Of a DNA stretch of 64,000 nucleotides, positions 9,259-41,728 are shown one piece after another; position 1 is the stretch's first letter, and every line of letters starts with the position of its first letter. The translations under genes were made by a program, and so were the position numbers. Source of the DNA: a virus; IMG/VR virus record IMGVR_UViG_3300042864_001285. The stretch is one strand, 5' to 3'. The notes below the pieces were generated by a model. That model was given only the letters and a program-made list of their open reading frames with translations. It was not told where the DNA came from and made no database searches.

Positions 9259-9259
9259 T

Positions 9260-9808: not shown

Positions 9809-9823
9809 TAGGAGTATATAAAA

Positions 9824-10408: not shown

Positions 10409-10423
10409 GAACTTCTAGCTGAC

Positions 10424-10452
10424 TTGCCAAGTACCAAGGACTCTGGTACAAT
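10424..10452 (+). promoter_or_regulatory. sigma70-like promoter TTGCCA-N17-TACAAT
   Basis: The sequence reads ttgccaagtaccaaggactctggtacaat. Confidence 0.5.
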
Positions 10453-10482
10453 AGACACACAAACACTTGAAAAGGAAATCTC

Positions 10483-11123: not shown

Positions 11124-11134
11124 AGGAGTATATT

Positions 11135-12553: not shown

Positions 12554-13023
12554 ACAAAAAACCTAAACTATACATGCTGGTCGGTGTACCAGGTTCTGGA
12601 AAGTCCACTTGGGTGAAGAACCAAGAGTTTTGGATGAAAGATTGTGCGTACATTTCCACCGACAAGTATGTGGAAGAATGGGCTGAAAGTGTTGGTAAAA
12701 CCTATACCGAAGTGTTTGAAGAATACATGCCCGTAGCCGTTACAAGGATGGCAGGTGCCGTGAATGCCGCACGTGATGTGGGAAAGGACATTATCTGGGA
12801 CCAAACCTCTACCACTATTGCCACAAGGGCGAAGAAATTCCGAATGCTCCCGGAATATTATGCGATTGCTGTGGTTTTTCGGATCCCAGAGCCGGAAGAA
12901 CTCCAGAAAAGGCTTGCCAGCCGACCTGGAAAAGTGATACCATCGGAGGTACTACAATCTATGATTGATAGGTGGGAAGAACCCACATTGGAAGAAGGCT
13001 TTAATGAAATTTGGAGAACATAA
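12550..13023 (+). CDS. P-loop kinase resembling the N-terminal 5-prime kinase domain of T4 polynucleotide kinase (no phosphatase domain)
   Basis: Walker A VGVPGSGKST is present. The segment KVIPSEVLQSMIDRWEEP parallels T4 Pnk KAVPIDVLRSMYKSMRE (recalled). Confidence 0.5.
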   Translation: MNKKPKLYMLVGVPGSGKSTWVKNQEFWMKDCAYISTDKYVEEWAESVGKTYTEVFEEYMPVAVTRMAGAVNAARDVGKDIIWDQTSTTIATRAKKFRMLPEYYAIAVVFRIPEPEELQKRLASRPGKVIPSEVLQSMIDRWEEPTLEEGFNEIWRT

Positions 13024-13217
13024 TGACAGAAAAACTTGAAATTGATTGTGAAACGGCTGACCGTATTACTTTGTTGGCACTCAAAGACCACAGAAAATAC
13101 CTTAAAAAGGAATTGAAACGCCACAGGAAGGGTGAATGGTTGCATCCAGAGGATGTTGTGTACAATACACAATTACTTGAAGCACTGGATGTTATTATTG
13201 ATTATTATGGTGGTTAA
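13023..13217 (+). CDS. hypothetical protein (about 64 aa)
   Basis: It overlaps the upstream gene by TAATG. Confidence 0.4.
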   Translation: MTEKLEIDCETADRITLLALKDHRKYLKKELKRHRKGEWLHPEDVVYNTQLLEALDVIIDYYGG

Positions 13218-13418
13218 ATGAAAGAGCCAATCGTAAAATCTGATATCAATCGACACCTTCATGCCATGCTAGGCCGTTCCGAACTGGTTGATGGATGGTG
13301 GGATTCACCAAACAAGGCATTTGATGGTAAAACACCTAATGAGGTGTACCAAACTGGTGCGGAAGGTCGGCTGAGTGTTTATCAATACGTGATTGGTTGT
13401 TCCGATGAGCATTGGTGA
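13218..13418 (+). CDS. DUF2384-like (Xre/MbcA/ParS antitoxin toxin-binding domain) orphan protein
   Basis: GWWDSPNKAFDGKTPNEVYQTGAEGRLSVYQYVIG matches the W..PN.aLgG.TP.e...t..G...V...L..i..G signature as I remember it. Confidence 0.45.
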   Translation: MKEPIVKSDINRHLHAMLGRSELVDGWWDSPNKAFDGKTPNEVYQTGAEGRLSVYQYVIGCSDEHW

Positions 13419-13490
13419 AATGTTGTAAAAAAACAACAAAAGGCAATCTTTATGGTTGCCTTTTTTTTATATATGGTATATAATAGAGTT
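13419..13490 (+). repeat. PeSL-like cassette, copy 1 (two hairpins + T-run + TTGCCT-N17-TATAAT)
   Basis: The hairpin aaaggcaa-tctttatgg-ttgccttt is followed by T8, then TATAAT at 13479-13484. It is nearly identical to the copy at 14895-14975. Confidence 0.65.
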
Positions 13491-13509
13491 TTCAATAATT
13501 GGACCTAAA

Positions 13510-14895
13510 ATGGCAAAACAACATAGTGTAACAGTAGCGTTGAATCGTACAATGAAACTTATTTCCACCAATATGCGGTATTTTAGGGAAAGAGTTGCTC
13601 TTGATACATCTTTTCAATCTGAAAGTCGATGGGAAGAAAAACAAGCCACAGCATATATGACCTCACTTATTACTGGTATGGCACCATCAAAAATTGTTGT
13701 TGCTAATATCAAAGAGTGTATGGACAAATGCATGGTAGAATCAAAAGATTATGAATACTACAATGATTGGCTTCAAAAAGGTTTTGAATGGATTTCCATT
13801 GACGGAAATAACCGTACTATCACAATCGACCAATATCTGAATGGTTCTGTTAAATTAAAGCATGGTCAATATCCATTGCCCAATGGTGTCGTTGATATCA
13901 ATGATAAGAATGACACATACAAAAAGCATCCAAAAATTCTTTTAGATTTTATTGAAAGTAGTGTCGAGATTACTGTTGCTGAGTATGTTTCTGCCACACG
14001 TAATGATTTGTCCAATATTTTCATTAACGTGAATGATGGTGTTTCACTGAATGCACAAGAATTACGTAATGCACGTTTGGTGCCATTTGCTGGTTGGGTG
14101 CGTGACACTGTAAAGAAACATAAGAATGAATTCCGTAAAGTATTTACCACGGAAAAACAAGAGAAGCGCCGATTGATTGACGATTTTGTTGTTGGTCTTG
14201 CCATCTATTCTTCTTTTGGTGCTGAACATGGTGTTGCAAAATCTGATAAAGATAATGCATATGAAGATGATTCTGTTGTATCAAAACAAACTAAGAATGC
14301 AAGTTCTAGTATTGATTCGATGTGCAAGATTGTCAAGAAACATGCAACAACTGGATTTAAAGACCATTCGACAATGTTGAATTTCTATATGGTGATTGAT
14401 TATCTCCGTAAAAACAATTTTGGTATTATCGATGACGCAAAACTATTTCAATGGTTTATGCGTACAGAGAATCGCCGCCTTGGAAGTAAAAAGATTCTGG
14501 TAGAATCTCCAAAATCAGGTGAACTCCGTACATATGCATCATGTTGCAATACAATGTCAAAGTTAGAATTAACGGCACGTTATAAAGCCATTATGGAAGA
14601 CTTTGAAATTATTGAAAGCGGTATCGTAGCACAACGGGACTCTGAACGCCTTTTCACACCACAACAAAGGTATGAAGCATGGGCACGCCAAGCTGGTGTA
14701 TGTCCAATAACTGGTGAACATATTCCAGAGGAGGAAATTAACGACCATGAAAAATGGGCGGCAGACCACATTGTTCCACACACCTTTGGTGGTCCATCCA
14801 AAGGTACCGATGGTACAAATAACTGCCAATTGGTTGCGAAGTCTGCCAATCTTAAAAAAGGTAGTAAAATGACACTCGGAGAAGTTCTGGTCTAA
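13510..14895 (+). CDS. DUF262 (ParB/GmrS-like NTPase) + C-terminal HNH/His-Me nuclease fusion; GmrSD-family-like or free-standing HNH endonuclease
   Basis: IDGNNRT matches the DGQQR DUF262 motif. The C-terminus CPITGEH...DHIVPHTFGG...NCQLVAKSANLKKG is an HNH pattern. I placed the start at the ATG at 13510, downstream of the promoter, rather than at 13456. Confidence 0.6.
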   Translation: MAKQHSVTVALNRTMKLISTNMRYFRERVALDTSFQSESRWEEKQATAYMTSLITGMAPSKIVVANIKECMDKCMVESKDYEYYNDWLQKGFEWISIDGNNRTITIDQYLNGSVKLKHGQYPLPNGVVDINDKNDTYKKHPKILLDFIESSVEITVAEYVSATRNDLSNIFINVNDGVSLNAQELRNARLVPFAGWVRDTVKKHKNEFRKVFTTEKQEKRRLIDDFVVGLAIYSSFGAEHGVAKSDKDNAYEDDSVVSKQTKNASSSIDSMCKIVKKHATTGFKDHSTMLNFYMVIDYLRKNNFGIIDDAKLFQWFMRTENRRLGSKKILVESPKSGELRTYASCCNTMSKLELTARYKAIMEDFEIIESGIVAQRDSERLFTPQQRYEAWARQAGVCPITGEHIPEEEINDHEKWAADHIVPHTFGGPSKGTDGTNNCQLVAKSANLKKGSKMTLGEVLV

Positions 14896-26532: not shown

Positions 26533-27087
26533 ATGCAAAGTAAACCAATACTTTTAAGCATACTATTTTCCGCAGTCATTATAACGTTGTCAATGGTAAA
26601 TATAAACTTATACAATTTACCATTCAAGGCCAGTTTTAGTTCTCTAGACAGAGAAACACAAAAACAAATAACATGCCTTGCCGACAATATTTATTTCGAA
26701 GCCGCACATGAACCTCTCAAAGGTAAGAAAGCTGTTGCTTTTGTCACCTTCAATAGAGTCATGTCTGGCAACTATGCTGATGATATTTGCGGAGTAGTTT
26801 ATCAAAAAACCGGTAGTGTTTGTCAGTTCTCTTGGTATTGTGAAAGCAAACATACCAATAATCGCTTGACAATTAGAAGCACTTCATTGTATAATGAGAT
26901 TCAACAGTTAGCTGTCAATATGGTTGTCAATTTTGAACGTTATGAAGACGTTACAAATGGTGCAACATATTACCATGCAGACTACGTGAATCCTCAATGG
27001 AATTTAAAAAGGATAGAGCAAATTGGAAGACACATCTTTTACAGAAGCAACAAAGACAAAATTGACAGAAACAAAGGAATCATCTAA
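26533..27087 (+). CDS. SleB-like cell-wall hydrolase (Hydrolase_2 family) with N-terminal TM/signal anchor
   Basis: LADNIYFEA...AVAFVTFNRV...ICGVVYQ...CQFSWYCE matches the SleB catalytic-domain pattern. Confidence 0.55.
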   Translation: MQSKPILLSILFSAVIITLSMVNINLYNLPFKASFSSLDRETQKQITCLADNIYFEAAHEPLKGKKAVAFVTFNRVMSGNYADDICGVVYQKTGSVCQFSWYCESKHTNNRLTIRSTSLYNEIQQLAVNMVVNFERYEDVTNGATYYHADYVNPQWNLKRIEQIGRHIFYRSNKDKIDRNKGII

Positions 27088-28606: not shown

Positions 28607-28688
28607 GTGTGCCTATATAATTCATACATTATGAAATATGTGGATAATTCGAAATACATTTAATACAACGTCATACAAGGAAAATACT

Positions 28689-29564
28689 ATGTCTTCATTC
28701 GCAAATCTCAAGAGCAGTTCTAGTAACCTAGACAAACTCGCCAAGGCTATTGAAAAACTCAATTCAGCCGAAACTCCCACCAAAGATGACAATTTCTGGA
28801 AACCAGAAGTCGATAAAGTCGGCAATGGTTATGCAGTTATTCGTTTCTTGCCTCAGCCATCGGTTGATGGTGATGATGCACTCCCGTGGGTAAAAGTATT
28901 CAATCACGGTTTCCAGGGTCCTGGTGGCTGGTACATTGAAAACTCTCTTACAACCTTGAATCAAAAAGATCCAGTTTCTGAATACAACTCTCAGTTGTGG
29001 AACTCTGGCATCGAAGCAAACAAGGAAGTTGCACGTAAACAAAAGCGCCGTCTGTCTTACATTGCAAATATCTACGTTGTTGAAGATTCTAAGAATCCTC
29101 AGAATCAAGGTAAAGTGTTTCTGTACAAGTTTGGTAAGAAAATCTTTGATAAGATTAACGAAGCGATGAATCCTGCTTTCGAAGATGAAAAGCCACTCAA
29201 CCCATTTGATATGTGGGAAGGTGCAAACTTCAAACTCAAGATTCGTAAAGTTGAGGGTTATCAGAACTATGATAAGTCTGAATTTGAGTCACCATCTGCA
29301 TTGTTGAATGACGATGCAAAGCTAGAAGCTATCTGGAAGAAAGAATACTCACTCAAAGAGTTTCTGTTGCCAGAAAACTTTAAGTCTTATGATGAGTTGA
29401 AGGCTCGCCTAGACAAGGTTCTCGGCCTTGATGGTTCACCAGTAGTTGCTAAGACTACAGTTGAACAAGCTAAAGCAATGCCACGTAAGCCAGTGATGGC
29501 GGATGCCGGTATTGCCGAAGATGATGATGATTTGGCTTATTTCTCTAAGCTAGCCGAAGAATAA
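28689..29564 (+). CDS. gp32: gp32 single-stranded DNA-binding protein
   Basis: GNGYAVIRFLP, NHGFQGPGGWYIE, GKVFLYKFGKKIFDKIN and WEGANFKLK parallel the T4 gp32 core (recalled). An acidic C-terminal tail is present. Confidence 0.75.
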   Translation: MSSFANLKSSSSNLDKLAKAIEKLNSAETPTKDDNFWKPEVDKVGNGYAVIRFLPQPSVDGDDALPWVKVFNHGFQGPGGWYIENSLTTLNQKDPVSEYNSQLWNSGIEANKEVARKQKRRLSYIANIYVVEDSKNPQNQGKVFLYKFGKKIFDKINEAMNPAFEDEKPLNPFDMWEGANFKLKIRKVEGYQNYDKSEFESPSALLNDDAKLEAIWKKEYSLKEFLLPENFKSYDELKARLDKVLGLDGSPVVAKTTVEQAKAMPRKPVMADAGIAEDDDDLAYFSKLAEE

Positions 29565-29613
29565 ACCTATCGAATTCGATAGGTTTGAAGCCCGCCGTGT
29601 GCGGGCTTTTTTT
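29564..29613. terminator. convergent-gene terminator: perfect 22-nt palindrome (centre GAATTC) + GC hairpin gcccgc-cgtgt-gcgggc + T7
   Basis: It sits between gp32 (+) and the minus-strand structural operon. Confidence 0.6.
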
Positions 29614-31084
29614 ATACTGGCGACATATAACCCTGCATCACATGTGCAAGTATCGGTGTCGTATCTCTCACTGTTGCGGTAGCAGGAATAGGCCTGTCAG
29701 GTAAATCAACTGAACTCGATGATGATGAAATAACAGGTGCAGCAGAGCCAGATGAACCAGAATCGTAACTTTGCAAATTCAAATTTTGATTTTCATCTAC
29801 CGCTTCATTCATTCTATTTGAAACAGGTGCTGCTGGAACCGGTGTTACAGTTTCAGGTATTGGTATACTCTTTATACCCATAGGTTTCACACCAAAAGCC
29901 GCTTTGCCTCCAGTTTCCTGTTCTAATTGCCTTGCTCTGTAATCATCTAAAGCAGCAGTGCCCCGGCCGGCTTCGGCGGTAGATTCTTCTACACCAGAGA
30001 GTAAAGGCTTAGCCGTTGTTGTGACTTTTGGTGTACCATCTGGATTATGAGTTTTACCGAACTCTCTATCCCAATTTCTAGCTCTGTCTTGATTTTTTCC
30101 TCCTGTTGTGTCGGGTCTAGGTGGAACAGAAGGTAACTGTGTTTCTGTTCGTAGTGGAACTTTAAGACCTTTTTGTGAGGCAATTTCTTTAAGTGTAGTT
30201 TCTCCGCCAAGATTTTGTAATTCTTTGAATGAGATTTTACCTTCTGCAAAATCATCTAATGCTTTTTGTGCCTCGTCTGGACCTTCTGTTATTCTTTTAG
30301 CGAGAAAATCATATCCACCCATACCTTTAATGTCATACTCGGAACCCATCAATGCTGCCTGAGCCCTTTCTGGTGTAAGTACCTTAGTATTTGGCATAAA
30401 ATCAGCTATTTTTTGTAATCCGTATGCTGCGGCTAAAACTGCACCTATAGTAAGAGTAAGTGGATTAATTAAAAACGGCACTAAAAGTTTCGCAAGAGAT
30501 AATAGTTTTTTTGAATTTTTAAATAAATCAAATAAACCTCCACCATCTTCTTCTTCTTTTTTGCTAACCAATGTTGTTGTACTACCCAAAGAAGTATATT
30601 CTTTTAATACTTTTAAGAACTCATTGTGTCTGCGTTGTTCTTCAACTTTTTGTTCTTCGGTAAATTGTTTGGCGGTATCTTTTCTTTTCATATCATCTTC
30701 ACGGGAACTCTGCATAAAGGCTAACATTCTGTTCAATACTTCAACAGCAGAACCGCCTAGCCCTCCACCCGGTGTGGACATTGATGATGGCATTTGTGTA
30801 TAACCAGACCTCTTGTTCTTATCACCAGCAAAGTAATTAATATCAGACTGTTTACGTCCTGTAAGTCTACCGAGAATTGCAGGTGCAAGTCTACTACCAC
30901 CTGTCATAAACTTTGCAATATTCATTGGATCAAATTTCTCTTTGATACCAGTTGCGCTTGCCTTGAACTTTGATGATATTGCACCAGAGAGTGAGGAGCC
31001 AATGCCTTTACCTGATGTTATATTATCAGTCATCATAGATGAAAGAGATTTACTTCTAATGTTGCTTGCTACTCTGTAATCCAT
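29612..31084 (-). CDS. virion/tail internal protein, tape-measure-like paralog 2 (TM helix, P/T/S-rich C-terminus)
   Basis: The N-terminal 90 aa are homologous to the 31086-32999 product (FDPMNIAKF.TGGS.LAPAI.GRL). A hydrophobic helix LLVPFLINPLTLTIGAVLAAAYGL is present. Confidence 0.5.
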   Translation of the reverse strand: MDYRVASNIRSKSLSSMMTDNITSGKGIGSSLSGAISSKFKASATGIKEKFDPMNIAKFMTGGSRLAPAILGRLTGRKQSDINYFAGDKNKRSGYTQMPSSMSTPGGGLGGSAVEVLNRMLAFMQSSREDDMKRKDTAKQFTEEQKVEEQRRHNEFLKVLKEYTSLGSTTTLVSKKEEEDGGGLFDLFKNSKKLLSLAKLLVPFLINPLTLTIGAVLAAAYGLQKIADFMPNTKVLTPERAQAALMGSEYDIKGMGGYDFLAKRITEGPDEAQKALDDFAEGKISFKELQNLGGETTLKEIASQKGLKVPLRTETQLPSVPPRPDTTGGKNQDRARNWDREFGKTHNPDGTPKVTTTAKPLLSGVEESTAEAGRGTAALDDYRARQLEQETGGKAAFGVKPMGIKSIPIPETVTPVPAAPVSNRMNEAVDENQNLNLQSYDSGSSGSAAPVISSSSSSVDLPDRPIPATATVRDTTPILAHVMQGYMSPV

Positions 31085-31085
31085 T

Positions 31086-32999
31086 TTAGTTTCCTATTCT
31101 CGGATTTAATTCACCCAATGGTGCTGAAGGTGATTGTATAGTTTTTTGTTTATTTGTAGTGTTGTTTTGAATAATCACTGGAGAACCACTTGCTGAACCT
31201 TGTGACATATCTTTTTTCATGTTGGCATTTTTCATAGAAGAATCATTTAATGAAGATCCAACAGTAGTATCATTTGTTTGTAATTTTGCTTTTGATGCTC
31301 GGTCGGCATCTAGAGCCACACCAACTTCTTCAGGAGAATTGTGTGCTTTATTACCACCAATACCAGAATAATACGATGAACCCTTTTTTAATTCAACCCT
31401 CACCTCTTTTATTGATCCGTCTTTTTGTTTAATCTTATCTATTCTATATGTATCAAAGGGCACACCAACTGAAGCAAACTCTTTTGAAAGTTGTAAAATT
31501 GCCTCATTTCTTGCATCTATTCCATTAGTTTTACCTTCTATGTAATTTGATACTTTTTTACGATTTATATCAATTAATCCTTTAGAAAACAAATGATCTT
31601 GCACAGTAGGTGTTAAGTAAGTGGTATTTGGATCTATCTTTAATTGTTCTATGAGACCTCGCATAGTTTTAGGTATAATTTGATACCTGCCCACTGCAAA
31701 TAAACGGTCTGGGTCATCGATTGGTAATTCTGATCTTCTAAGATATTCCGAAATTGTAATTTTACTAAAATCAACAGGTGCAATTGCTCCAAGAATTTTA
31801 TTATCTTTTGTACCTCTATTGTAGGCATTATATTCATTACCAGCAAAAGATTTTCCAGCAGAAGCGGTGCTTTCATATTTGGCAATATTGGTAGCCAAGG
31901 CTTCTTTTCCAGCGAGAACGGCTGTCACGGCGGCCGCACCAGTAATTACTTTTGAAGCCGATGGTTGTGTGGTTGGTATGGGTTCTTGTTTTTTTGCCGT
32001 ATCTGCGGCTTTTTTAGCATCAGCCGCATCCTTAATTCGTTTAGCATCAGCCGCATCTTTGGCTTTCTTGGCCGCATCAGCCGCATCTTTGGCTTTCTTG
32101 GCCGCACTGGCGGCATCAGCGGCATCCTTAGCCTTCTTGGCCGCACTGGCGGCATCAGCGGCATCCTTAGCCTTCTTGGCCGCACTGGCGGCATCAGCGG
32201 CATCTTTGGCATCTTTGGCTTTCTTGGCGGCATCGGCCGCATCTTTGGCATCTTTGGCTTTCTTGGCGGCATCGGCCGCATCTTTGGCATCTTTGGCTTT
32301 CTTGGCGGCATCGGCCGCATCTTTGGCCTGTGTGACTGGTTTTGGTGCTGTTTGTGCCGGCGGTGATGTTTGTGCAGGTGGTTTTGGTGCTGTTTGTGTG
32401 GGTGTGGAAGGAGTCGATGGGGTTGTTTCAGCCTTTTCTTGAACCTGTCGTTTCTTGGCTTCTTTAGCCATGTCTTTCATGGCTTTACGTTGTTTTTTTA
32501 TTGCATCCCTGAATACATTCATCACTTCTTTGTGATTATCTTCTTTCATGTATTCATTCATTTCATTATATGAATCGAATGTATCTTGTTCCTCTAAGTC
32601 CTTTTCCCTGGAATCTTGCATAAAGGACACAATTTTTTCTAATATTTCGGTGGCCTTTCCAGATCGACCACCACCCATACCTGAATTGAACTTCTCATAG
32701 TAGTTTGGGCGATGACTTCCAGTTTCATATTGTTTCTTGCCGGTGAAGTATCGAATGTCTTGTTTACTTCTACCCATGAGGCGACCAACGATTGCTGGTG
32801 CAAGTTTGCTACCACCAGTGAGGAACTTGGCGATATTCATCGGATCAAATCTCTCTTTCATGGCCATGGATTTGGCCATTGACCTATCTGACATAGTTCC
32901 ACGGAGAGATGAGACAATACCCTGGCCTGATGCCAGTCTATCTGTCATTAAATTAGCGAAGCCTTTTTTTCTTATTCTGGCGGCATCGTAGTAGTTCAT
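31086..32999 (-). CDS. tape-measure-like protein with TolA-like K/A/D 11-aa repeats and C-terminal SLT-like lytic transglycosylase motif
   Basis: About 20 AKKAKDAADAA repeats run from 31990 to 32340. AVGRYQIIPKT resembles the SLT GLMQIMPxT motif. It occupies the position of T4 gp29 relative to the hub genes. Confidence 0.5.
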   Translation of the reverse strand: MNYYDAARIRKKGFANLMTDRLASGQGIVSSLRGTMSDRSMAKSMAMKERFDPMNIAKFLTGGSKLAPAIVGRLMGRSKQDIRYFTGKKQYETGSHRPNYYEKFNSGMGGGRSGKATEILEKIVSFMQDSREKDLEEQDTFDSYNEMNEYMKEDNHKEVMNVFRDAIKKQRKAMKDMAKEAKKRQVQEKAETTPSTPSTPTQTAPKPPAQTSPPAQTAPKPVTQAKDAADAAKKAKDAKDAADAAKKAKDAKDAADAAKKAKDAKDAADAASAAKKAKDAADAASAAKKAKDAADAASAAKKAKDAADAAKKAKDAADAKRIKDAADAKKAADTAKKQEPIPTTQPSASKVITGAAAVTAVLAGKEALATNIAKYESTASAGKSFAGNEYNAYNRGTKDNKILGAIAPVDFSKITISEYLRRSELPIDDPDRLFAVGRYQIIPKTMRGLIEQLKIDPNTTYLTPTVQDHLFSKGLIDINRKKVSNYIEGKTNGIDARNEAILQLSKEFASVGVPFDTYRIDKIKQKDGSIKEVRVELKKGSSYYSGIGGNKAHNSPEEVGVALDADRASKAKLQTNDTTVGSSLNDSSMKNANMKKDMSQGSASGSPVIIQNNTTNKQKTIQSPSAPLGELNPRIGN

Positions 33000-33141
33000 C
33001 TAATTTTGCTCTCGTTTATCTTTTGTTTAATCTTCTGATTTTCTTCCTCAATATATTGTATAAGCATACCAACATATACATCACGTTCCCACGGTATCAT
33101 ATTCTCAAGTTCCGTAAGACTGTACTTATGGTGTTGCATCA
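32996..33141 (-). CDS. possible 47-aa protein overlapping the downstream start by ATGA
   Basis: It is not in the ORF track. There is no clear SD. Confidence 0.2.
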
Positions 33142-33189
33142 AAGAGAAATTAGTTTTGTAATAATTTCTCAAATTATCATGACCAAATG

Positions 33190-33915
33190 TTAACCGAAAA
33201 AACTTTCCAGTCCTTCAACGTCAAGAGTGTGTTCGAAGCCGCAACGTGAACACTTCATTTCAATTTTCTTTTCTATCTTTGGAAGATTTGCAAAGAAGTC
33301 CTCAATTTTGGAGAATTGTTGTTGATTGAGAGATTCAATGAATTCAACAATCTCCTTCGACTCAACTTCTTTTGCATAATAAAACTGTTCACCATCATAG
33401 ATGTATTCTACAGATTCAGCAATCATTTCAAATGCAATATCAGAAACACTTGTTAAATTGGATAATTTACTCAATATGGAAAACTCTGGATATTTTAGTT
33501 TAATCGAAATTGTTTCATTGAGTTGTATAACATCATTACCCTCCACTACACCTGAGACTTTAATGTCCAGTAAGTTCAGTGAAGTTTCCATGATGTTACC
33601 GCAAACTTTTTCATCAACTGTGTTATCACAACGGTATTTGTTTTCGACAACTTCACCGACAGACCTCGCACGGAGTTGCAAAAAGTAAAATTCAATATCG
33701 ATAACAGGAAGTTTCTCGATATCAATACCCTCTGTAACTGTGCAGTTATTTAGAACCTGTTTTACATTTTGTTCAATTGATTCCCTTTCTCCAGATTCCA
33801 TTGCCATGAGAAGATTCTTTTGCTCTTTCACAAGGAAAGGACGAAAGCGAATCTTCTTTTTTGATAATGGTAACTCCAAGTCATAAATCGGTGTGTCGAT
33901 TTTTGGTAAAGCCAT
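33190..33915 (-). CDS. baseplate hub-associated protein (gp26/gp51-like?) with C-terminal CxxC zinc ribbon
   Basis: TATAAATT and GGAG precede the ATG. The assignment rests only on its position next to the tube and hub genes. Confidence 0.35.
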   Translation of the reverse strand: MALPKIDTPIYDLELPLSKKKIRFRPFLVKEQKNLLMAMESGERESIEQNVKQVLNNCTVTEGIDIEKLPVIDIEFYFLQLRARSVGEVVENKYRCDNTVDEKVCGNIMETSLNLLDIKVSGVVEGNDVIQLNETISIKLKYPEFSILSKLSNLTSVSDIAFEMIAESVEYIYDGEQFYYAKEVESKEIVEFIESLNQQQFSKIEDFFANLPKIEKKIEMKCSRCGFEHTLDVEGLESFFG

Positions 33916-33931: not shown

Positions 33932-34600
33932 TTAAGGTGTAAGTCTATCTTCAAATTGTTGTCGTGTTTCAAACGGCTGTTGAACTAAGTCTCTACCTAG
34001 TAAAGACTCTGTTTGTATCTGTGAAGCAAACAATGAATTCGCAATAGTGGTTTCCAGCAATTCCATTCCAAGTGCTTCAAGAGAATTATTTCTCCAACTT
34101 GTGTATGCGAATGTTACAGTAAGTTTGTGGTGTCCATCTGACGACCAATCTAAATCCATCTGATTTACTGCAATCGGAAATGTGTCCAACATTGTAATAG
34201 AATATGACAGTTGATTCTTAACATCATATTGATTCACTGTGAGTGGAACAGCATAATCCGCTTTGTACTTTAGGTTGTAGTTGATTGTTGGATTGATCCA
34301 GTTCAACCATGCATCAAAGAATTTCTTTTCCGCCATATCATCACCGACAATGAATGTGAGACTCGTATCATTGTATGTTGTTTGATATGGAAACTTTTCT
34401 TCAACACCGTAAATTTTCATCGTTGTTGTTGAGATTGAACGACCAGGAAGTTCTGCGTTTTCACAACGCATATTCAGTGTTCTTCCAATTCCTCTGTATG
34501 GTAGAAGACCAATTGGAATTGGAACGTTTACGTCAAACCTACTTGGTCGTGCTAAGTCTGTATTAAAACTTGCTTTGAATTCTGCGATTGATCCTGCCAT
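33932..34600 (-). CDS. tail-tube family protein (gp19/gp54/gp48 fold)
   Basis: The N-terminus FNTDLARPSRFDVNV parallels gp19 FESGDFARPNLFQVEI. LDWSSDG...LTVTFAYTSW parallels LDWDSNNE...FEVTLALDYWE (recalled). Confidence 0.5.
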   Translation of the reverse strand: MAGSIAEFKASFNTDLARPSRFDVNVPIPIGLLPYRGIGRTLNMRCENAELPGRSISTTTMKIYGVEEKFPYQTTYNDTSLTFIVGDDMAEKKFFDAWLNWINPTINYNLKYKADYAVPLTVNQYDVKNQLSYSITMLDTFPIAVNQMDLDWSSDGHHKLTVTFAYTSWRNNSLEALGMELLETTIANSLFASQIQTESLLGRDLVQQPFETRQQFEDRLTP

Positions 34601-35202
34601 TAGTATACCCTACTTTGTGCTTTGGCTACCGATTCAGCATATACTTTAGAAATCGGTGCGCCCTTGAAAACGGCTGTGGGAAGAAATAGTGCTGTCTCCC
34701 ACTCTGGTGGTTGAATCGTCAGAATTTTAGATTTAATTTGACTATTCAGGTAACGCTTCAAACAAGGCCTAAACTCTTTGAAATTCTTCGATGCAGTTAG
34801 AATATCATAGGTTATACGAAGGCGTTTAGGTTCATCATTTTCATTTGTAATAGCAAAATTCATGAGTTTGTCCATGAACACAGCACGATACCTTGGAGGT
34901 AAATAATGCATGTTTAGACCTATGAATCCTTCAGCATCACGTTTAAGTGGTATCACCAAAGGAAATATGTCGTAGTAGGGTAAATCACCCTTAGTTAATG
35001 GATCGTAGAAAAAGTGATAAAGCCCACCTATCTGAAATCGGCCACCTTGCCTACCTTTTTCTTTTTCTATTTCTCTCGCCAATTTGATTGGAGATTTTAG
35101 GTCACGCATCTGGTTTTGTAACCACGTGACAGATTTTCTAGACAAGAATTCTTGTTCCAGAGCCGTTTTTTGTTGAGTAAGTTGTGTAAGTGTTGAAGCC
35201 AT
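34600..35202 (-). CDS. structural protein, possibly tail completion (gp3-like)
   Basis: The size and its position between the tube-family gene and the gp4-like gene support this. No diagnostic motif was found. Confidence 0.3.
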   Translation of the reverse strand: MASTLTQLTQQKTALEQEFLSRKSVTWLQNQMRDLKSPIKLAREIEKEKGRQGGRFQIGGLYHFFYDPLTKGDLPYYDIFPLVIPLKRDAEGFIGLNMHYLPPRYRAVFMDKLMNFAITNENDEPKRLRITYDILTASKNFKEFRPCLKRYLNSQIKSKILTIQPPEWETALFLPTAVFKGAPISKVYAESVAKAQSRVY

Positions 35203-35209: not shown

Positions 35210-36355
35210 TTAGTTTAGCCTTGGATGTATTTTTGTGAGCCAATCCAACTCTGTGCGACTATCGTTCCTTGTGTACCAGCCCGTACCTTTGGAAACATCA
35301 ATAATAGACTCAAAATATTCCTTATACATTGAGCCAATTTTACGAAAGTTGTAGTTCTTCTCAGCCCATTCCCGACACGCTTGTGGTGAAATTGTATCAA
35401 TATTCTTAGCCGCCCATACAAATTGTTCAAATGTGCGGCAACGGAAACCAGTAACTCCGTGCTGTACAGTCTCTGTAAATGCACCCCAATCAACCGTGAT
35501 GACAGGTGTTCCAGAGAGCATCGCCTCGATTGCTACATAACCAAAAGGCTCGTTATAGATTGTGGGGCAAAACAATCCTTTAGCTCCAGCCATTAGACGT
35601 TTACGGGTTTCAACATCAGCATAACCAACATATTCAACGTGAGCAGGCCATGTATCACCAAGATTACAATCTTGCGGTCCATAGCTTGTTCCAGCCAGCA
35701 CCAACTTAACGCCAAGTTGTTCACACACTTGAGCCGCAATATCAACACCTTTTGACCATACCATACGACCACACATCAGAAAATAATCTTCTTTCTTTTC
35801 AGTGTATTCGAATTCACTCAGGTCAAAACCAGATGGGATGACAACATCATAGAACTTATATTCAGCGGTTGCAACTTTGTCTGGACCTTGAAGACCGTGC
35901 ATCACTGCATACGATTCATATACTTTGTATGGTGCAAATGAGGACGGATAACCGATAGAAGGTTCAACGCAGAGCAATTCTGCATGTGCATCACAAACTG
36001 GTTTCTGTGCTATACCAAAAAAACAAAGGATAATGTCGTGTGGTTGTTTACGTTTTCCAATCTCTTTGATACAGTTTTCATTGAATGTTTTAAAAACTTC
36101 ATCTTCCTGATTGTATTTCAGTCCTTGATTCTTCCAGTCATATATACCATAAACCTTCTCGTTCAATGCACGTGTTGTGACAGTGACATGTTCATCACAG
36201 ATAACGTCAGAATCTTCACGACCATAATGAATGACATGCATTCCCATGTCTTTGTACATTTTACAGAAGTTAATCACTTTTTGAGTAAACGCACAAACCG
36301 TATACTCTTTTGTCGATGCCGTATGCGGAACCGACAATACATGGAGTCTAATCAT
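35210..36355 (-). CDS. GT-B glycosyltransferase (GT1/GT4-like)
   Basis: The C-terminal EPFGYVAIEAMLSGTPVITVDWGAFTETV matches the E-x7-E / EAMxxGxPVI nucleotide-sugar-binding signature. Confidence 0.6.
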   Translation of the reverse strand: MIRLHVLSVPHTASTKEYTVCAFTQKVINFCKMYKDMGMHVIHYGREDSDVICDEHVTVTTRALNEKVYGIYDWKNQGLKYNQEDEVFKTFNENCIKEIGKRKQPHDIILCFFGIAQKPVCDAHAELLCVEPSIGYPSSFAPYKVYESYAVMHGLQGPDKVATAEYKFYDVVIPSGFDLSEFEYTEKKEDYFLMCGRMVWSKGVDIAAQVCEQLGVKLVLAGTSYGPQDCNLGDTWPAHVEYVGYADVETRKRLMAGAKGLFCPTIYNEPFGYVAIEAMLSGTPVITVDWGAFTETVQHGVTGFRCRTFEQFVWAAKNIDTISPQACREWAEKNYNFRKIGSMYKEYFESIIDVSKGTGWYTRNDSRTELDWLTKIHPRLN

Positions 36356-38488: not shown

Positions 38489-39915
38489 TGAATAAAATTG
38501 AAGTTGCTGGTGGATCGTCTATTATTGCTCCTAAGCCACAGGAAACTGTGCAAACTGCTGGTTTAGTTTTAGCCGACCAGTTCAGTCTTGACGAAATATA
38601 TTTGATTACATCATCCGGTAAAACAAGCCTCAAAAACATGTTCATAGAAGTATCTTTTTATGAAGATATTTTTAAAGGTATAATGAGTGGTAATGTTTTA
38701 ATCACAGATTCTATTAGTCTAATTGATAGACTTGCCATGACAGGATTCGATTATTTAAAACTTAAATTTAAAAAATCCACAAAAGTATCAGAACAATATG
38801 TGACTGAAAAATACTTTAGAATTTACAGAGTGTCTGAAAGAATCTTGAACAATAATTCGACAGAAACATACACATTACATTTTTGCTCAGAAGAACTTTT
38901 ACTTTCAGAACAAACTAAAATAAGTAAATCATATTCTGGAAAAAAAATCTCAGATATGATTTATGACATACTTTATAATAAATTGAAAATTGATAAAAAA
39001 TATATTAGAATGCAGGAGACTGATGGGCTATATGATTTTGTAATACCATATAAGAAACCAATTGAAGCTATTAACTGGCTTGCAAGTTATGCAAAACCTG
39101 TCGGTAAAGACGGTGCAGATTTTTTATTCTTTGAAAATTCGGAAGGTTTTAATTTTTATTCATTGCAAAGTTTATTTACACAAAATGCATACACAAGGTA
39201 CTCATATATTCCCAGAAATTTAGGCAAATTACAAAACACAGGAGAACTCGGCAGAGATATCGTTGGTATTAAATCATACGTTTTCTTAGATACGTTTGAT
39301 AGTTTATATGGTACTGTAACCGGTGCATTTGCTAATAGAGTAATTACTATCGATCCGTTGACAAGAACCTATAGAGATACGGTGTTTGATTACTTAAAGT
39401 ATTTTAACAAATCTAAAAATTTAAATAATAGTCCAATAATACCACAACTTAAAAATAGGTTAGGCAAAACCGCAAATGAAAATTATGATGCGGTTTTAAA
39501 GGTATTGACTTCAAATGCCAATCAAAAGAAGTCAATAGGTATCAGTGATGAACCTTGGAATGTGGCAAATGATGTAAGAGTGGAAAATTATGTGCCAAAT
39601 CGAACAGCACAACTTTCACTTTCTCATTATTCGAGAATAAGATTATCCGTTTCTGGCGATCCAAATTTAACTGTTGGAATGATAATTCAAATAATTTTAC
39701 CATCCAAAAGAAGTGCTGATGGATCTGGAAATTATGTTGGAGAAATTGATCCGATAAATTCTGGAAAATACATGATTACGGCTGTTAGACATATTATAGA
39801 CCATCTTGGTAAATATGAATCTATACTAGAAGTTGTAAAAGATAGTTACGGAGCATCAGTGAACACTTATACAAATTCTGGTGACATGGAGAAAGCAATA
39901 AAGGGTGATGTATAA
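38488..39915 (+). CDS. baseplate hub protein (gp27/VgrG-N-like)
   Basis: It precedes the gp5 OB-domain gene and is about 475 aa. The call rests on position only. Confidence 0.35.
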   Translation: MNKIEVAGGSSIIAPKPQETVQTAGLVLADQFSLDEIYLITSSGKTSLKNMFIEVSFYEDIFKGIMSGNVLITDSISLIDRLAMTGFDYLKLKFKKSTKVSEQYVTEKYFRIYRVSERILNNNSTETYTLHFCSEELLLSEQTKISKSYSGKKISDMIYDILYNKLKIDKKYIRMQETDGLYDFVIPYKKPIEAINWLASYAKPVGKDGADFLFFENSEGFNFYSLQSLFTQNAYTRYSYIPRNLGKLQNTGELGRDIVGIKSYVFLDTFDSLYGTVTGAFANRVITIDPLTRTYRDTVFDYLKYFNKSKNLNNSPIIPQLKNRLGKTANENYDAVLKVLTSNANQKKSIGISDEPWNVANDVRVENYVPNRTAQLSLSHYSRIRLSVSGDPNLTVGMIIQIILPSKRSADGSGNYVGEIDPINSGKYMITAVRHIIDHLGKYESILEVVKDSYGASVNTYTNSGDMEKAIKGDV

Positions 39916-40949
39916 TGTCAGATTTTAAAAATAGAATTGGGCACGATGATTTCGTTTGGTGGATTGGTGTCGTTGAAGACCGTGTTGATCCATTAAATGT
40001 TGGTCGTTGTAAGGTTAGAATTTTTGGTTCACACACAGATAACTTACAAGAAATTCCAACAGCAGAGTTACCTTGGGCAACACCATTATATCCAGTTAAT
40101 GATTCTAGAACATTTTCCGCACCAATGGAAGGTGATTATGTTTTTGGCTTCTTTATGGACGGCCTATCATCACAAGCACCAGCAATGCTGGGTGTATTTC
40201 CTGCTATACCACAGCAAGATGTTGATGCTGTTGAGGGTAAAGGTTTTTACGCCAAAGCCAAATATACCAACTCAACACTAAATGAATCTGATGCAGTAAC
40301 ACCTATTGTTTACACTGACACACCTGCAATGAAACCGGTACGTGTAGGTGAGTCAACGGCTTCCGCACCATCGAATACATATAAGGGTACAGGAATTGAA
40401 AAGTCGGATAATTCACGGGCACACGTTTGTGATATTCCAGGTGTAATAAAATACCAGGCGGCAGTTGAGGCTTTAAAAAATTCCACAATATTTCAAGCAA
40501 TACGAAATAAAATTGAGGCTCTCACGTCCGGTGCTGCGGCATCATCACCAATAACAACACAAATATTGTCGGCTATTAAAGTTTTACGTGGAATTTTAAA
40601 AACAATTAACGAATTACTAGACTTTATTAATAATGTTATAAAAACAATAGCGGAATTTATAGCAAAAGTGCAACAAACAATTGCATGGTTTTTAAGCCTG
40701 CCTGCTAGATTACTTCAACAATTCAGTGATTGTTTGGCTAGTTTGTACGCCGCTTTGGCTGGTGTGTTTACCTCCGATGTAGATTCGGAAACCAGTACCT
40801 TCTCGCAACTTATAACCGAAGGAACTGTGTTAATTTCGGATGTTACAAAAACTATAGCTAATACAACAACAACAATCGCCAGTGCCTCCACCTTAGTATC
40901 TACGGCAGAAACAACTTTGAATCCGAACTCTTATTCAGGAAGAATTTAA
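39915..40949 (+). CDS. gp5: gp5-like baseplate hub protein: N-terminal OB-fold only, no lysozyme domain
   Basis: FVWWIGVVEDRVDPLNVGRCKVRIFGSHTDN...LPWATP parallels the T4 gp5 N-terminal OB domain (recalled). The C-terminal half is predicted helical. Confidence 0.45.
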   Translation: MSDFKNRIGHDDFVWWIGVVEDRVDPLNVGRCKVRIFGSHTDNLQEIPTAELPWATPLYPVNDSRTFSAPMEGDYVFGFFMDGLSSQAPAMLGVFPAIPQQDVDAVEGKGFYAKAKYTNSTLNESDAVTPIVYTDTPAMKPVRVGESTASAPSNTYKGTGIEKSDNSRAHVCDIPGVIKYQAAVEALKNSTIFQAIRNKIEALTSGAAASSPITTQILSAIKVLRGILKTINELLDFINNVIKTIAEFIAKVQQTIAWFLSLPARLLQQFSDCLASLYAALAGVFTSDVDSETSTFSQLITEGTVLISDVTKTIANTTTTIASASTLVSTAETTLNPNSYSGRI

Positions 40950-40951: not shown

Positions 40952-41728
40952 ATGGCAACACAAGCACAACTAGACCAACAAATTCTGGACACAAAACCGG
41001 ATGATTATTCATGGAATGAACCTCCATCAGATTGGAATGCTTCTCCTCCACTAAATAAAGTAATTGGTACGGAGTCTGGGCACTTTATCGAACTTGATGA
41101 TACACCAGAATACGAAAGAGTGCGTATTCAACATAGAACTGGCACATTCACTGAGATACAAGCAAACGGTCAACAAATCGTTAAAATTTTAGGTGATAAG
41201 TATGAAATCATAGCAAATGATAATAATGTTCTCATTAAGGGTATCTGCAACATTACGATAAACGGAGACTCTGTTGTACATGTACTAGGTGACGCATACA
41301 GTAAAGTCGAAGGTGATTCATATCAACAAGTGAATGGTAAAACAAAAGTAAATTCGACAGATAAGGTTGAAATCACATCAGGTGGAGATATTTCACTTTT
41401 TGCTGGTACCGCAACGGGTGTAATCACATTAAGAGCCGCTGAAGCCGTTAATATACAGAGTGATTTAAATGTTTCGGGCTCAATCATTTCGAAACAATCA
41501 GTTTCAGCGGTTGAAAATGTAACAGCCGGCATGAAATTAAGTTCAAATCTTGGTATCGATACTCTTGGACCAATATTTGGAGCAGTAAGTCTTTGGACAC
41601 CACTCACACAGGGTGCTATGGTGAGAGATACTTTAGGTACGATGATGACTATGCGAATGCAATACAATTCACATATACATAAAGCACCAAAGGGTCCAAC
41701 TTCCACACCTTTACGTAAAATGTTATAA
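40952..41728 (+). CDS. central spike beta-helix protein (gp5 C-terminal-like)
   Basis: It contains repetitive V/I-x-G-D beta-strand repeats (VLGDAYSKVEGDSYQQVNG...) and a C-terminal HxH. Confidence 0.45.
   Translation: MATQAQLDQQILDTKPDDYSWNEPPSDWNASPPLNKVIGTESGHFIELDDTPEYERVRIQHRTGTFTEIQANGQQIVKILGDKYEIIANDNNVLIKGICNITINGDSVVHVLGDAYSKVEGDSYQQVNGKTKVNSTDKVEITSGGDISLFAGTATGVITLRAAEAVNIQSDLNVSGSIISKQSVSAVENVTAGMKLSSNLGIDTLGPIFGAVSLWTPLTQGAMVRDTLGTMMTMRMQYNSHIHKAPKGPTSTPLRKML

What the first reader, a model, noticed from the sequence alone, without database searches (positions are those of the whole stretch)
29612..32999. Paralogous pair of tape-measure-like proteins; one carries TolA-like K/A/D repeats and an SLT-like domain
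The two adjacent minus-strand genes share an N-terminal 90-aa domain and then diverge. The 637-aa protein has about 20 copies of an 11-aa AKKAKDAADAA repeat (33-nt periodicity at 31990-32340), a TolA-like extended helix. It also has a C-terminal AVGRYQIIPKT motif resembling lytic transglycosylases. The 490-aa paralog has a TM helix and a P/T/S-rich tail. The lysozyme normally carried by gp5 is absent here (gp5 is OB-only), so the cell-wall-digesting activity may have moved to this ejection or tape-measure protein.
Basis: partly seen in the sequence, partly recalled or inferred. Interest (0 to 1): 0.6.

Follow-up and report, generated by a model that had tools for sequence, protein, structure and literature searches.

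The report
Paired tail-core proteins, one carrying lysozyme
An uncultured marine T4-like phage has two adjacent sister genes where T4 keeps its tail tape-measure gene, and one of them carries a lambda-lysozyme-like cell-wall-cutting domain that related phages swap for at least six other wall-cutting domains, which probably replaces the lysozyme missing from the tail spike.

Summary
Two translationally coupled minus-strand genes, A (637 aa) and B (490 aa), share about 165 N-terminal residues (44% identity, E 6e-43). A's repeat unit is 13 aa (39 nt) in about 8 copies, not 11 aa in 20 copies. Near-identical relatives differ in length by 13-aa steps.

The genes sit directly after gp26 and gp51, in the hub cluster where T4 encodes gp29. 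All 63 IMG/VR loci with enough upstream DNA keep the A-then-B order. Relatives of A keep the N-domain and the C-terminal tail but exchange the enzyme: GH19, VgrG3-like, SLT, GH24, Phage_lysozyme2 or glucosaminidase.

B is helical, has one transmembrane segment like T4 gp29, and varies less in length than A.

In cyanophage S-CREM2, the two genes in the same slot carry muralytic domains and were detected in virions by mass spectrometry.

Best reading: both are tail-hub or tail-lumen proteins of the tape-measure class. A delivers the wall hydrolase; B inserts into the membrane and is the likelier ruler. This is a new variant of a known kind.

The parts
31086..32999 (-). Gene A (637 aa): N-domain, low-complexity linker, lysozyme-like domain, conserved C-terminal tail
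   Evidence: ORF list. Domain partition by phmmer on homologues. Coordinates checked.
32490..32999 (-). A, N-terminal helical domain (aa 1-170), shared with B
   Evidence: BLASTP A vs B gives 44% identity over 168 columns, E 6e-43. hhalign of the A family vs B gives E 4e-36.
32334..32444 (-). A, P/T-rich spacer (aa 186-222)
   Evidence: Read directly from the sequence.
31995..32333 (-). A, K/A/D tandem repeat (aa 223-335): 13-aa (39-nt) units, about 8-9 copies, copy number variable between strains
   Evidence: TRF finds period 39 with 7.1 copies at 89% match, and period 78. Relatives of 611, 624, 637 and 650 aa differ only here.
31290..31904 (-). A, lambda-lysozyme-like muralytic domain (aa 366-570). 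Putative catalytic Glu376 is at nt 31872-31874. The GRYQ motif (aa 437-440) is at nt 31680-31691.
31089..31274 (-). A, conserved C-terminal tail (aa 576-637), kept even where the enzyme domain is exchanged
   Evidence: phmmer finds the tail in 40+ homologues with different middle domains. hhalign of the A tail vs the B tail gives E 5.5e-4, which is only suggestive.
29612..31084 (-). Gene B (490 aa): N-domain, long helix, transmembrane segment, helical domain, P/T/S-rich conserved tail
   Evidence: ORF list. AlphaFold2 predicts a nearly all-helical protein. 181 homologues align over the full length.
30590..31084 (-). B, N-terminal domain paralogous to A (aa 1-165)
30416..30505 (-). B, single strong hydrophobic (transmembrane-like) segment (aa 194-223)
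   Evidence: Kyte-Doolittle scan. T4 gp29 (aa 227-259) and the putative tape measure of HTVC008M (aa 122-147) each have one comparable segment.
30035..30397 (-). B, confidently predicted compact helical domain (aa 230-350), fold unassigned
   Evidence: pLDDT 91-98 across most of this stretch (aa 231-350), with one lower block of about 77. No PDB or BFVD match carries a name.
29615..29869 (-). B, conserved C-terminal tail (aa 406-490)
   Evidence: A tail HMM built from 57 B-family members recognises the divergent L004 homologue, E 2e-20.
32996..33172 (-). Small gp51-like ORF (hub assembly catalyst); its stop overlaps A's start codon (ATGA)
   Evidence: ORF. The equivalent 47-aa gene in L004 has a weak Pfam Gp51_C hit. 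Junction sequence.
33190..33915 (-). gp26-like baseplate hub gene, immediately upstream in the same operon
   Evidence: Pfam T4_baseplate E 5e-60 and phrog_150 'baseplate hub'.
29587..29609 (.). G+C-rich hairpin followed by a T-run, between B and the convergent gp32 gene; likely the operon's terminator
   Evidence: Terminator scan finds a 9-bp stem with 6 G-C pairs.
39915..40949 (+). gp5-like spike protein with an OB domain and no lysozyme domain. It is context for the proposed relocation of the enzyme.
   Evidence: Pfam Gp5_OB only; PHROG hits cover only the N-terminal part of 'hub and tail lysozyme' profiles. The rest of the sequence is helical.
26533..27087 (+). SleB-like Hydrolase_2 protein with a hydrophobic N-terminus. 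It is the likely true endolysin, so A is not needed for lysis.
   Evidence: Pfam PF07486 E 4e-22; PHROG 'endolysin'. Conserved in L003 and L004.

Best explanation
A and B are late, co-transcribed and translationally coupled structural genes. They occupy the place in the baseplate-hub cluster (gp2, gp54-like, gp26, gp51, A, B) where T4 encodes gp29.

I propose that both are tail-internal proteins of the tape-measure class. Their shared N-terminal helical domain, and possibly a related C-terminal tail, would dock them at the same sites in the hub and tail tube. Both would be expelled through the tube tip after sheath contraction.

B has one transmembrane segment, as T4 gp29 does. It is almost entirely helical and varies less in length than A. 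It is the likelier ruler and the likelier inner-membrane-inserting subunit.

A is the enzyme carrier. A flexible low-complexity spacer (here a 13-aa K/A/D repeat, in relatives a P/A-rich repeat) links the N-domain to a lambda-lysozyme-like muralytic domain near the C-terminus, which is the end that leaves the tail first. That domain would cut the peptidoglycan locally, doing the job of the lysozyme domain that gp5 lacks in this phage.

The enzyme module is an exchangeable cassette between conserved ends.

Shown: paralogy, gene position and its conservation, the fold, the conserved catalytic-type residues, cassette exchange, and repeat-number polymorphism.

Inferred: location in the virion, ejection, enzymatic activity, and which paralog sets tail length.
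For: Paralogy: (E 6e-43).

Operon structure: an ATGA overlap with the gp51-like ORF and one nucleotide between A's stop and B's start; a terminator after B.

Synteny: gp2, gp54-like, gp26, gp51, A, B is conserved in 160-170 kb contigs. All 63 IMG/VR loci with enough upstream DNA have the pair, and the other 17 of the 80 loci are truncated by contig ends. HTVC008M has a 'putative tail tape measure' in the same slot.

Cyanophages: they carry two large proteins in the slot gp26, gp51, X, Y, gp27-like, and in Syn19 and S-SZBM1 the two are paralogous.

Virion evidence from a relative: in S-CREM2, X and Y carry GH19 and a lambda-lysozyme-like domain plus GH24. Both were detected in virions by mass spectrometry, with peptide counts per unit length close to those of the trimeric spike and hub proteins (PMC10665884).

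Precedent: the homologous domain sits near the C-terminus of a bona fide tape measure in the myophage Magia. That gene follows the frameshifted chaperone pair (E 7e-11).

Cassette exchange: GH19, VgrG3-like_C, SLT, GH24, Phage_lysozyme2 or glucosaminidase sit between the same N-domain and tail.

B: helical with one transmembrane segment, like T4 gp29. 11 of the 13 weak PHROG hits recorded across 57 B-family members are to 'tail length tape measure' families. B lengths have SD 36 aa against 90 aa for A in paired loci.

gp5 lacks a lysozyme domain, and a separate endolysin candidate exists.
Against: There is no detectable sequence or profile homology to T4 gp29. Similarity to the HTVC008M tape-measure family is weak (E 0.026).

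The PHROG tape-measure hits are weak (best E 2.7e-4). The window's own B has none.

There are no virion data for this phage. In S-SZBM1, the virion proteome listed the neighbouring gp27-like protein but not the two proteins in the slot.

Across cyanophages the lengths of the slot proteins do not scale simply with tail length. S-SZBM1 has 893 and 780 aa for a 114 nm tail; S-CREM2 has 1565 and 1456 aa for a 418 nm tail.

A folded lysozyme domain is bulky for a tube lumen.

The window covers only about 40% of the genome, so another tape-measure candidate could lie outside it.
Confidence: 0.55

Rival explanations
1. A alone is the tape measure, a tape measure with an embedded C-proximal lysin as in the myophage Magia and many siphophages. 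B is a separate accessory hub or membrane protein (for example a gp28-like or pilot protein) that merely shares a docking domain.
For: The Magia tape measure has the homologous lysozyme-like domain at the same relative position. A lies directly after gp51. A's median length of about 590 aa is close to T4 gp29 at 590 aa. A has conserved N- and C-termini flanking a variable middle.
Against: A's length is much more variable (417-802 aa, SD 90) than B's. Its spacer switches between helical K/A/D and proline-rich composition, and copy number varies between near-identical strains. These are odd properties for a ruler. A has no strong transmembrane segment, whereas T4 gp29, the HTVC008M tape measure and B each have one. 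The weak PHROG tape-measure hits were found with B-family members.
Confidence: 0.2
2. A and B are not tail components. They are ejection (pilot) proteins packaged in the capsid, as the S-CREM2 authors assumed for their two virion 'endolysins'. They would be injected ahead of the DNA, like T7 gp14, gp15 and gp16.
For: [quoted passage not shown] T7 gp16 is a precedent for an ejected protein with a transglycosylase domain (my own knowledge).
Against: The genes are embedded in the hub assembly operon between gp51 and the gp27-like gene or the operon end, not among head genes. The closest structural and sequence relatives of the enzyme domain are tail proteins: the A-1(L) hub, the Magia tape measure, the BcepSauron 'tail protein' and the PSS2 tail protein. 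Myophages deliver DNA through a tube that must be plugged by a tape-measure-class protein.
Confidence: 0.1
3. A and B form a lysis cassette, with A as the endolysin and B as a holin-like membrane protein, and are not virion proteins.
For: A has a muralytic domain and B has a transmembrane segment. Database annotators called cyanophage equivalents 'endolysin' or 'lambda lysozyme'.
Against: Both proteins are several times larger than holins and endolysins. They share a 165-aa N-domain, are translationally coupled to hub genes, and keep this position in all 63 loci. The positional equivalents are in S-CREM2 virions. The phage has a separate, conserved SleB-like endolysin with a hydrophobic N-terminus.
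Confidence: 0.03

Closest known systems
Tape measure proteins with embedded muralytic domains (Burkholderia myophage Magia TMP; mycobacteriophage TM4 TMP; T5 Pb2)
   Same: A large, mostly low-complexity or helical tail-module protein with a wall-hydrolase domain near the C-terminus. Magia's domain is sequence-homologous to A's (E 7e-11). In TM4 the motif promotes infection (PMC1796659, seen).
   Different: Those phages have a single tape-measure gene preceded by a frameshifted chaperone pair. Here there are two paralogs, no chaperone pair, a T4-type hub-cluster context, and an enzyme module exchanged among at least 7 folds.
T4 gp29 (tape measure and hub protein) together with the T4 gp5 lysozyme domain
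   Same: Same gene neighbourhood (gp26, gp51 and the hub genes). Similar size (590 aa). One central hydrophobic segment, as in B. The function proposed for A's domain is that of the gp5 lysozyme.
   Different: No detectable sequence or profile similarity. T4 has one such gene. T4's lysozyme is a GH24 domain inside gp5, whereas here gp5 has no enzyme domain.
Synechococcus phage S-CREM2 gp208 and gp209, and the cyanophage pairs Syn19_014/015 and S-SZBM1 893-aa/780-aa
   Same: The same slot (gp26, gp51, X, Y, gp27-like). Two large adjacent proteins, paralogous to each other in Syn19 and S-SZBM1. They carry muralytic domains, including the same lambda-lysozyme-like type, and N-proximal transmembrane segments. 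The S-CREM2 pair was detected in virions.
   Different: They are 1.5 to 3 times longer. The region the cyanophage paralogs share with each other is a different, more membrane-proximal segment. Its similarity to B is weak (best HMM E 7.5e-5 in a 229-sequence database, hhalign E 0.006). In S-CREM2 both partners carry enzymes.
Phage lambda lysozyme R (GH104 lytic transglycosylase)
   Different: About 15% identity. A has extra beta-hairpin insertions. A's domain is embedded in a 637-aa structural protein rather than being a free 158-aa endolysin. No sequence-family match in Pfam or the PDB.
Baseplate hub gp15 of Anabaena myophage A-1(L) (PDB 8kea)
   Different: There the enzyme domains are fused to the gp27-like hub barrel, not to a tape-measure-like protein. 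A-1(L) has a separate conventional tape measure, gp13.

Membership tests
Tape measure / tail-lumen protein class | Gene located in the tail or hub module at the position where the lineage encodes its tape measure | tested here: met
   The order gp2, gp54-like, gp26, gp51, A, B is seen. HTVC008M has a 'putative tail tape measure' in the same slot. T4 has gp26, gp51, gp27, gp28, gp29.
Tape measure / tail-lumen protein class | Protein length proportional to tail length | not testable with these tools
   This phage has no morphology data. The cross-phage check is inconclusive: S-SZBM1 has 780 and 893 aa for 114 nm, S-CREM2 has 1456 and 1565 aa for 418 nm. B's length is narrowly distributed (SD 36 aa); A's is not (SD 90 aa).
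Tape measure / tail-lumen protein class | Predominantly alpha-helical or extended, with hydrophobic membrane-active segment(s) | tested here: met
   B is nearly all helical with one transmembrane-like segment at aa 194-223. A has a helical N-domain and a low-complexity spacer, but only a weakly hydrophobic Ala/Gly-rich segment (aa 346-365).
Tape measure / tail-lumen protein class | Sequence or profile homology to an established tape-measure family | tested here: inconclusive
   T4 gp29: none. PHROG tape-measure families account for 11 of the 13 weak hits (best E 2.7e-4) recorded across 57 B-family members, and the window's B has none. HTVC008M tape-measure family vs B: E 0.026.
Tape measure / tail-lumen protein class | Physically present in the virion tail | not testable with these tools
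   The only evidence is indirect. The positional equivalents in S-CREM2 were found in virions by mass spectrometry. The S-SZBM1 equivalents were not listed.
Lambda-lysozyme-like (GH104-type) lytic transglycosylase | Lysozyme-like fold superimposable on lambda R | tested here: met
Lambda-lysozyme-like (GH104-type) lytic transglycosylase | Catalytic Glu at the end of the first helix, and the G-R-Y-Q motif | tested here: met
   Glu376 (in KYES) and G437-R-Y-Q440 are invariant in 21 homologues. hhalign aligns GRYQ with lambda R's GRYQ. The equivalence of the Glu is inferred from its position in the helix, not from a residue-level superposition.
Lambda-lysozyme-like (GH104-type) lytic transglycosylase | Significant match to a curated sequence family model | tested here: not met
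   No Pfam, NCBIfam or PDB-sequence hit for the domain. hhalign to lambda R gives E 0.002 at only 14% probability.
Lambda-lysozyme-like (GH104-type) lytic transglycosylase | Transglycosylase chemistry (1,6-anhydro-MurNAc product) | not testable with these tools
   Needs an enzyme assay.
T4 gp29 family | Detectable homology to T4 gp29 | tested here: not met
   hhalign of the A family, of the shared A/B N-domain alignment, and of the HTVC008M and cyanophage profiles against gp29 all gave probability below 1%.
TolA | Homology to TolA domains rather than shared composition | tested here: not met
   No TolA family hit in Pfam. Relatives replace the K/A/D repeat with P/A-rich repeats, so this is a compositionally free spacer.

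The most novel reading that the evidence does not exclude
Marine T4-like phages (this pelagimyophage-related lineage and the Kyanoviridae cyanophages) build the core of the tail from two paralogous tape-measure-class proteins rather than one. An example would be a 3+3 heteromeric bundle joined through the shared N-domain. One subunit would specialise in membrane insertion and length setting. The other would act as a delivery arm for an interchangeable wall-hydrolase cassette that is tuned to the host cell wall by recombination.
Probability: 0.25. Interest if true: 0.65.

Novelty: new variant of a known kind. Interest (0 to 1): 0.5.

Why it matters
A comparative study of pelagimyophages and cyanomyophages reported that it could not identify the tape measure in these abundant ocean phages (PMC7029224). 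The corresponding cyanophage genes are annotated 'hypothetical', 'endolysin' or 'lambda lysozyme'.

This analysis gives a concrete, testable candidate pair for the tail core. It explains how phages whose gp5 spike has no lysozyme can still breach peptidoglycan. It also shows that the wall-cutting module is a hot spot of exchange, with at least 7 enzyme types between conserved ends, so it is a plausible determinant of host-wall adaptation.

The B-family profile, which includes the N-domain shared with A, finds 1077 clusters at 50% identity. Better annotation would therefore affect many metagenomic viral contigs.

It also suggests reinterpreting the two virion 'endolysins' of S-CREM2 as tail-hub proteins.

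Tried and rejected
- Megablast of the region against GenBank phages found nothing. tblastn of B against phages found nothing.
- Pfam, PHROGs and NCBIfam on the window's A and B gave nothing usable.
- Sequence searches of the PDB with A's domain, its family profile and the B-family profile returned only chance hits.
- hhalign of the A family against T4 gp29 and the HTVC008M tape measure found no relation, and the shared A/B N-domain alignment also found none against these or the S-SZBM1 slot proteins.
- BFVD Foldseek with the B model returned only uncharacterised proteins from uncultured phages.
- An exact-sequence lookup of contigs encoding A returned nothing.
- Using published tail lengths (S-SZBM1, S-CREM2) to decide which protein is the ruler was inconclusive with two data points. 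In S-CREM2 a 2668-aa virion protein (ORF124) also fits 418 nm at 1.5 A per residue, although its high peptide count argues for a higher-copy component.
- The idea that A and B also share their C-terminal tails remains only suggestive (hhalign E 5.5e-4, probability 30%).
- The lysis-cassette reading and the TolA-homology reading were considered and rejected. The reasons are given under the rival explanations and the membership tests.


Full report
**What is in the window**

The window comes from an uncultured T4-like myophage. The region around the finding encodes:
- gp32 (28638-29564, + strand);
- on the minus strand, a gp4-like head-closure gene, a glycosyltransferase, gp2 (34600-35202), a tail-tube-fold gp54-like protein (33932-34600), gp26 baseplate hub (33190-33915; Pfam T4_baseplate E 5e-60), a small gp51-like ORF (32996-33172), and then the two genes of the finding;
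- further right on the plus strand, gp48, gp53, a gp27-like 'tail protein', gp5, gp25, gp6 and other baseplate genes.

The nearest cultured relatives by gp6 are Pelagibacter phage HTVC008M and the Methylophilales phage Melnitz, at only 36-42% identity. The DNA has no near match in GenBank phages.

**Check of the observation**

They are true paralogs. BLASTP aligns residues 1-165 of A with 1-162 of B at 44% identity, E 6e-43. So the shared domain is about 165 residues, not 90.

The genes are tightly coupled. A's ATG overlaps the stop of the gp51-like ORF (ATGA). One nucleotide separates A's stop from B's ATG. A strong hairpin with a T-run at 29587-29609 follows B.

The K/A/D repeat is real and lies at nt 31995-32333 (aa 223-335). 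Tandem Repeats Finder gives a 39-nt period (7.1 copies, 89% match) and a 78-nt super-period, not 33 nt. At the protein level there are three AKKAKDAKDAADA units, three ASAAKKAKDAADA units and some shorter degenerate units.

Near-identical relatives in public data are 611, 624, 637 and 650 aa long. They differ only by whole 13-aa units.

The AVGRYQIIPKT motif is at aa 435-445. B has one strong hydrophobic segment (aa 194-223) and a P/T/S-rich tail.

**The enzyme domain of A**

No Pfam, PHROG-function, NCBIfam or PDB-sequence search recognises the domain. In particular it is not a member of Pfam SLT.

tblastn finds 30-35% identical stretches in many T4-like cyanophages, annotated 'lambda lysozyme', 'endolysin', 'lysozyme-like domain protein' or 'hypothetical'. 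It also finds the domain in tail proteins of other phages.

I built an AlphaFold2 model of aa 345-585 from 21 homologues. It is confident (pLDDT 86.9, pTM 0.82).

Structure searches gave these results:
- Foldseek: lambda lysozyme is the top hit, probability 0.99.

In the alignment of 21 homologues, Glu376 (in KYES, at the end of the first helix of the fold) is invariant. So are the G-R-Y-Q motif, a Q-D pair and an E-x-A-S motif. hhalign places A's GRYQ on the GRYQ of lambda R.

The domain is therefore a divergent lambda-lysozyme-like muralytic domain. By analogy with lambda R it is probably a lytic transglycosylase, but its chemistry has not been tested.

**Architecture and family of A**

Homologues from metagenomes show a four-part plan:
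1. A conserved N-domain (aa 1-170).
2. A low-complexity spacer. It is A/K/D-rich as here, or P/A/K/T-rich as in the 170-kb contig L003, which has about 170 residues of PAPAPKPP-type repeat.
3. One enzyme domain.
4. A conserved 60-residue C-terminal tail.

The enzyme domain is not constant. Members whose N-domains are 70-86% identical to the window's carry GH19, VgrG3-like_C, glucosaminidase, GH24 or SLT instead.

I checked this in an independent set of 50 unique A-type proteins, each taken from next to a B gene in IMG/VR contigs:
- VgrG3-like_C: 10
- GH19: 9
- SLT: 3
- GH24: 3
- Phage_lysozyme2: 3
- glucosaminidase: 1
- the window's lambda-lysozyme-like type: 11
- no assigned domain: about 10

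Every identifiable module is a peptidoglycan glycosidase or transglycosylase. This is strong comparative evidence that the function selected at this position is cutting the glycan strands of the cell wall.

**B and the pair**

B has 181 homologues in the word-indexed search, mostly aligned over the full length. A profile search of 1.84 billion cluster representatives finds 1077 clusters at E <= 1e-3. None of them is annotated.

AlphaFold2 predicts a nearly all-helical protein:
- a helical N-domain (aa 1-90);
- a 50-residue helix (aa 112-164);
- the hydrophobic segment;
- a confidently predicted compact helical domain (aa 230-350);
- a disordered tail with short helices.

T4 gp29 and the annotated putative tape measure of HTVC008M also have exactly one strong hydrophobic segment. 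A has none above threshold.

Across 57 B-family members, 11 of the 13 weak PHROG hits recorded are to 'tail length tape measure protein' families (best E 2.7e-4). The window's own B gives none.

I surveyed 80 IMG/VR loci found with the B profile. All 63 loci with at least 1.5 kb of upstream DNA have an A-type gene carrying the N-domain immediately upstream of B, separated by -19 to +10 nt. The other 17 are cut by the contig end. In these pairs A ranges from 417 to 802 aa (SD 90) and B from 423 to 581 aa (SD 36).

A profile-profile comparison of the two C-terminal tails gives E 5.5e-4 (probability 30%), aligned in register at the extreme C-termini. The paralogs may share both ends, but this is only suggestive.

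**Comparison with cultured phages**

HTVC008M has the order gp2, tube-like, gp26, gp51, a 110-aa ORF and a 687-aa 'putative tail tape measure' in the same place.

T4-like cyanophages have gp26, gp51, X, Y and then a gp27-like gene:
- Syn19: X is 1548 aa, Y is 1212 aa.
- S-SZBM1: X is 893 aa, Y is 780 aa.
- S-CREM2: X is 1565 aa, Y is 1456 aa.

In Syn19 and in S-SZBM1, X and Y are paralogous to each other in an N-proximal region that includes a transmembrane segment (E 5e-9 and 3e-8). One or both carry muralytic domains:
- the lambda-lysozyme-like type in Syn19_014, the S-SZBM1 780-aa protein and S-CREM2 gp209;
- GH19 in S-CREM2 gp208;
- GH24 in S-CREM2 gp209.

S-CREM2 gp208 and gp209 were detected in purified virions with 73 and 71 peptides. 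That is about 4.7-4.9 peptides per 100 residues, like the trimeric spike and hub proteins gp210 and gp211 of the same phage (PMC10665884). The authors filed them as encapsidated 'endolysins'.

In S-SZBM1 the virion proteome listed the gp27-like neighbour but not the two slot proteins. That proteome was shallow: the tail tube protein was represented by one peptide.

The Burkholderia myophage Magia has a conventional tape measure, identified by the frameshifted chaperone pair upstream. It contains the homologous lysozyme-like domain near its C-terminus (E 7e-11 to A, 1e-25 to the S-SZBM1 780-aa protein).

Profile comparisons connect the HTVC008M tape-measure family to the region shared by the cyanophage pairs (probability 52%, E 1.5e-4). 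They connect B to both more weakly (E 0.006 and 0.026). All three alignments place a charged helix followed by the hydrophobic segment in the same register.

None of these families shows any similarity to T4 gp29.

**Interpretation**

The position, the coupling to hub genes, the conserved ends, the tail-protein affinities of the enzyme domain and the S-CREM2 virion data all point one way. A and B are virion proteins of the tail hub or tail lumen, the class to which tape measures belong.

The gp5-like gene has an OB domain followed by a helical region, and a separate ORF carries the C-terminal trimerisation-like part. Neither has a lysozyme domain. A SleB-like hydrolase with a hydrophobic N-terminus (26533-27087) is available as the endolysin, and it is conserved in relatives.

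The most economical model follows. The wall-digesting activity needed at entry is carried by A, near the C-terminal end that leaves the tail first. In phages where this has been resolved, the tape measure's C-terminus docks at the spike or hub (A-1(L), PMC10966104). B is the membrane-active partner, varies less in length, and is more likely to act as the ruler.

The variable spacer of A, with strain-level changes in copy number, behaves like a flexible tether rather than a measuring rod.

Virion location, ejection, enzyme activity and the assignment of the ruler are all inferences.

**Novelty and score**

Tape measures and tail-tip proteins with muralytic domains are well known, so the principle is not new. 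Three things are new relative to what I could find:
- the identification of candidates for the tape-measure slot in pelagimyophage-like and cyanomyophage lineages, where a comparative study reported it could not identify the tape measure (PMC7029224);
- the conserved two-paralog arrangement;
- the cassette-like exchange of at least seven muralytic folds between conserved termini.

I rate it a new variant of a known kind, of moderate interest (0.5). The more novel reading is a heteromeric tail core built from two paralogs. The evidence does not exclude it, but it is untested.

Noticed in passing
window 39915-40949 and 40952-41728 (+): The gp5 equivalent is split into two ORFs in different reading frames. 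The first is a 344-aa protein with an OB domain and a helical region. The second is a 258-aa protein resembling the gp5 C-terminal trimerisation (beta-helix) part. Neither has a lysozyme domain. A related 170-kb contig (L003) also has a gene of about 338 aa with only an OB domain.
   Followed up: partly
window 26533-27087 (+): A SleB-like cell-wall hydrolase (Pfam Hydrolase_2, E 4e-22) with a hydrophobic N-terminus. It is probably the phage's real endolysin, possibly of the signal-anchor type. It is conserved at the same place in L003 and L004.
   Followed up: partly
window 29587-29609: A hairpin with a 9-bp stem (6 G-C pairs) flanked by T-runs lies between the convergent gp32 gene and gene B. 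It looks like a bidirectional terminator.
   Followed up: no
window 35210-36355 (-); L003 4022-5785; L004 4166-5833: A glycosyltransferase gene sits inside the structural operon between gp4 and gp2. In relatives it is a longer fusion (555-587 aa) with a methyltransferase domain. It may modify virion or host glycans.
   Followed up: no
A-family homologues (P0001-P0076): A/K/D-type spacers (about 103-222 aa) tend to be longer than P/A/K/T-type spacers (mostly 86-155 aa, with outliers of 208 and 255 aa). This could compensate for the different rise per residue of a helix and a polyproline stretch. I did not correct for phylogeny.
   Followed up: partly
L090 (Synechococcus phage S-CREM2, OR473000) 5484-14555: The two 'endolysins' detected in S-CREM2 virions, gp208 (GH19) and gp209 (lambda-lysozyme-like plus GH24), lie in the slot gp26, gp51, X, Y, gp27-like. 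They are probably tail-hub or tape-measure-class proteins rather than encapsidated lysins. S-CREM2 has a 418-nm tail, so it is a good system for testing which protein sets tail length.
   Followed up: partly
window 51089-57652 (+): A 2187-aa ORF follows the baseplate wedge genes, at the position of the 'VrlC protein' of HTVC008M. I did not examine it.
   Followed up: no
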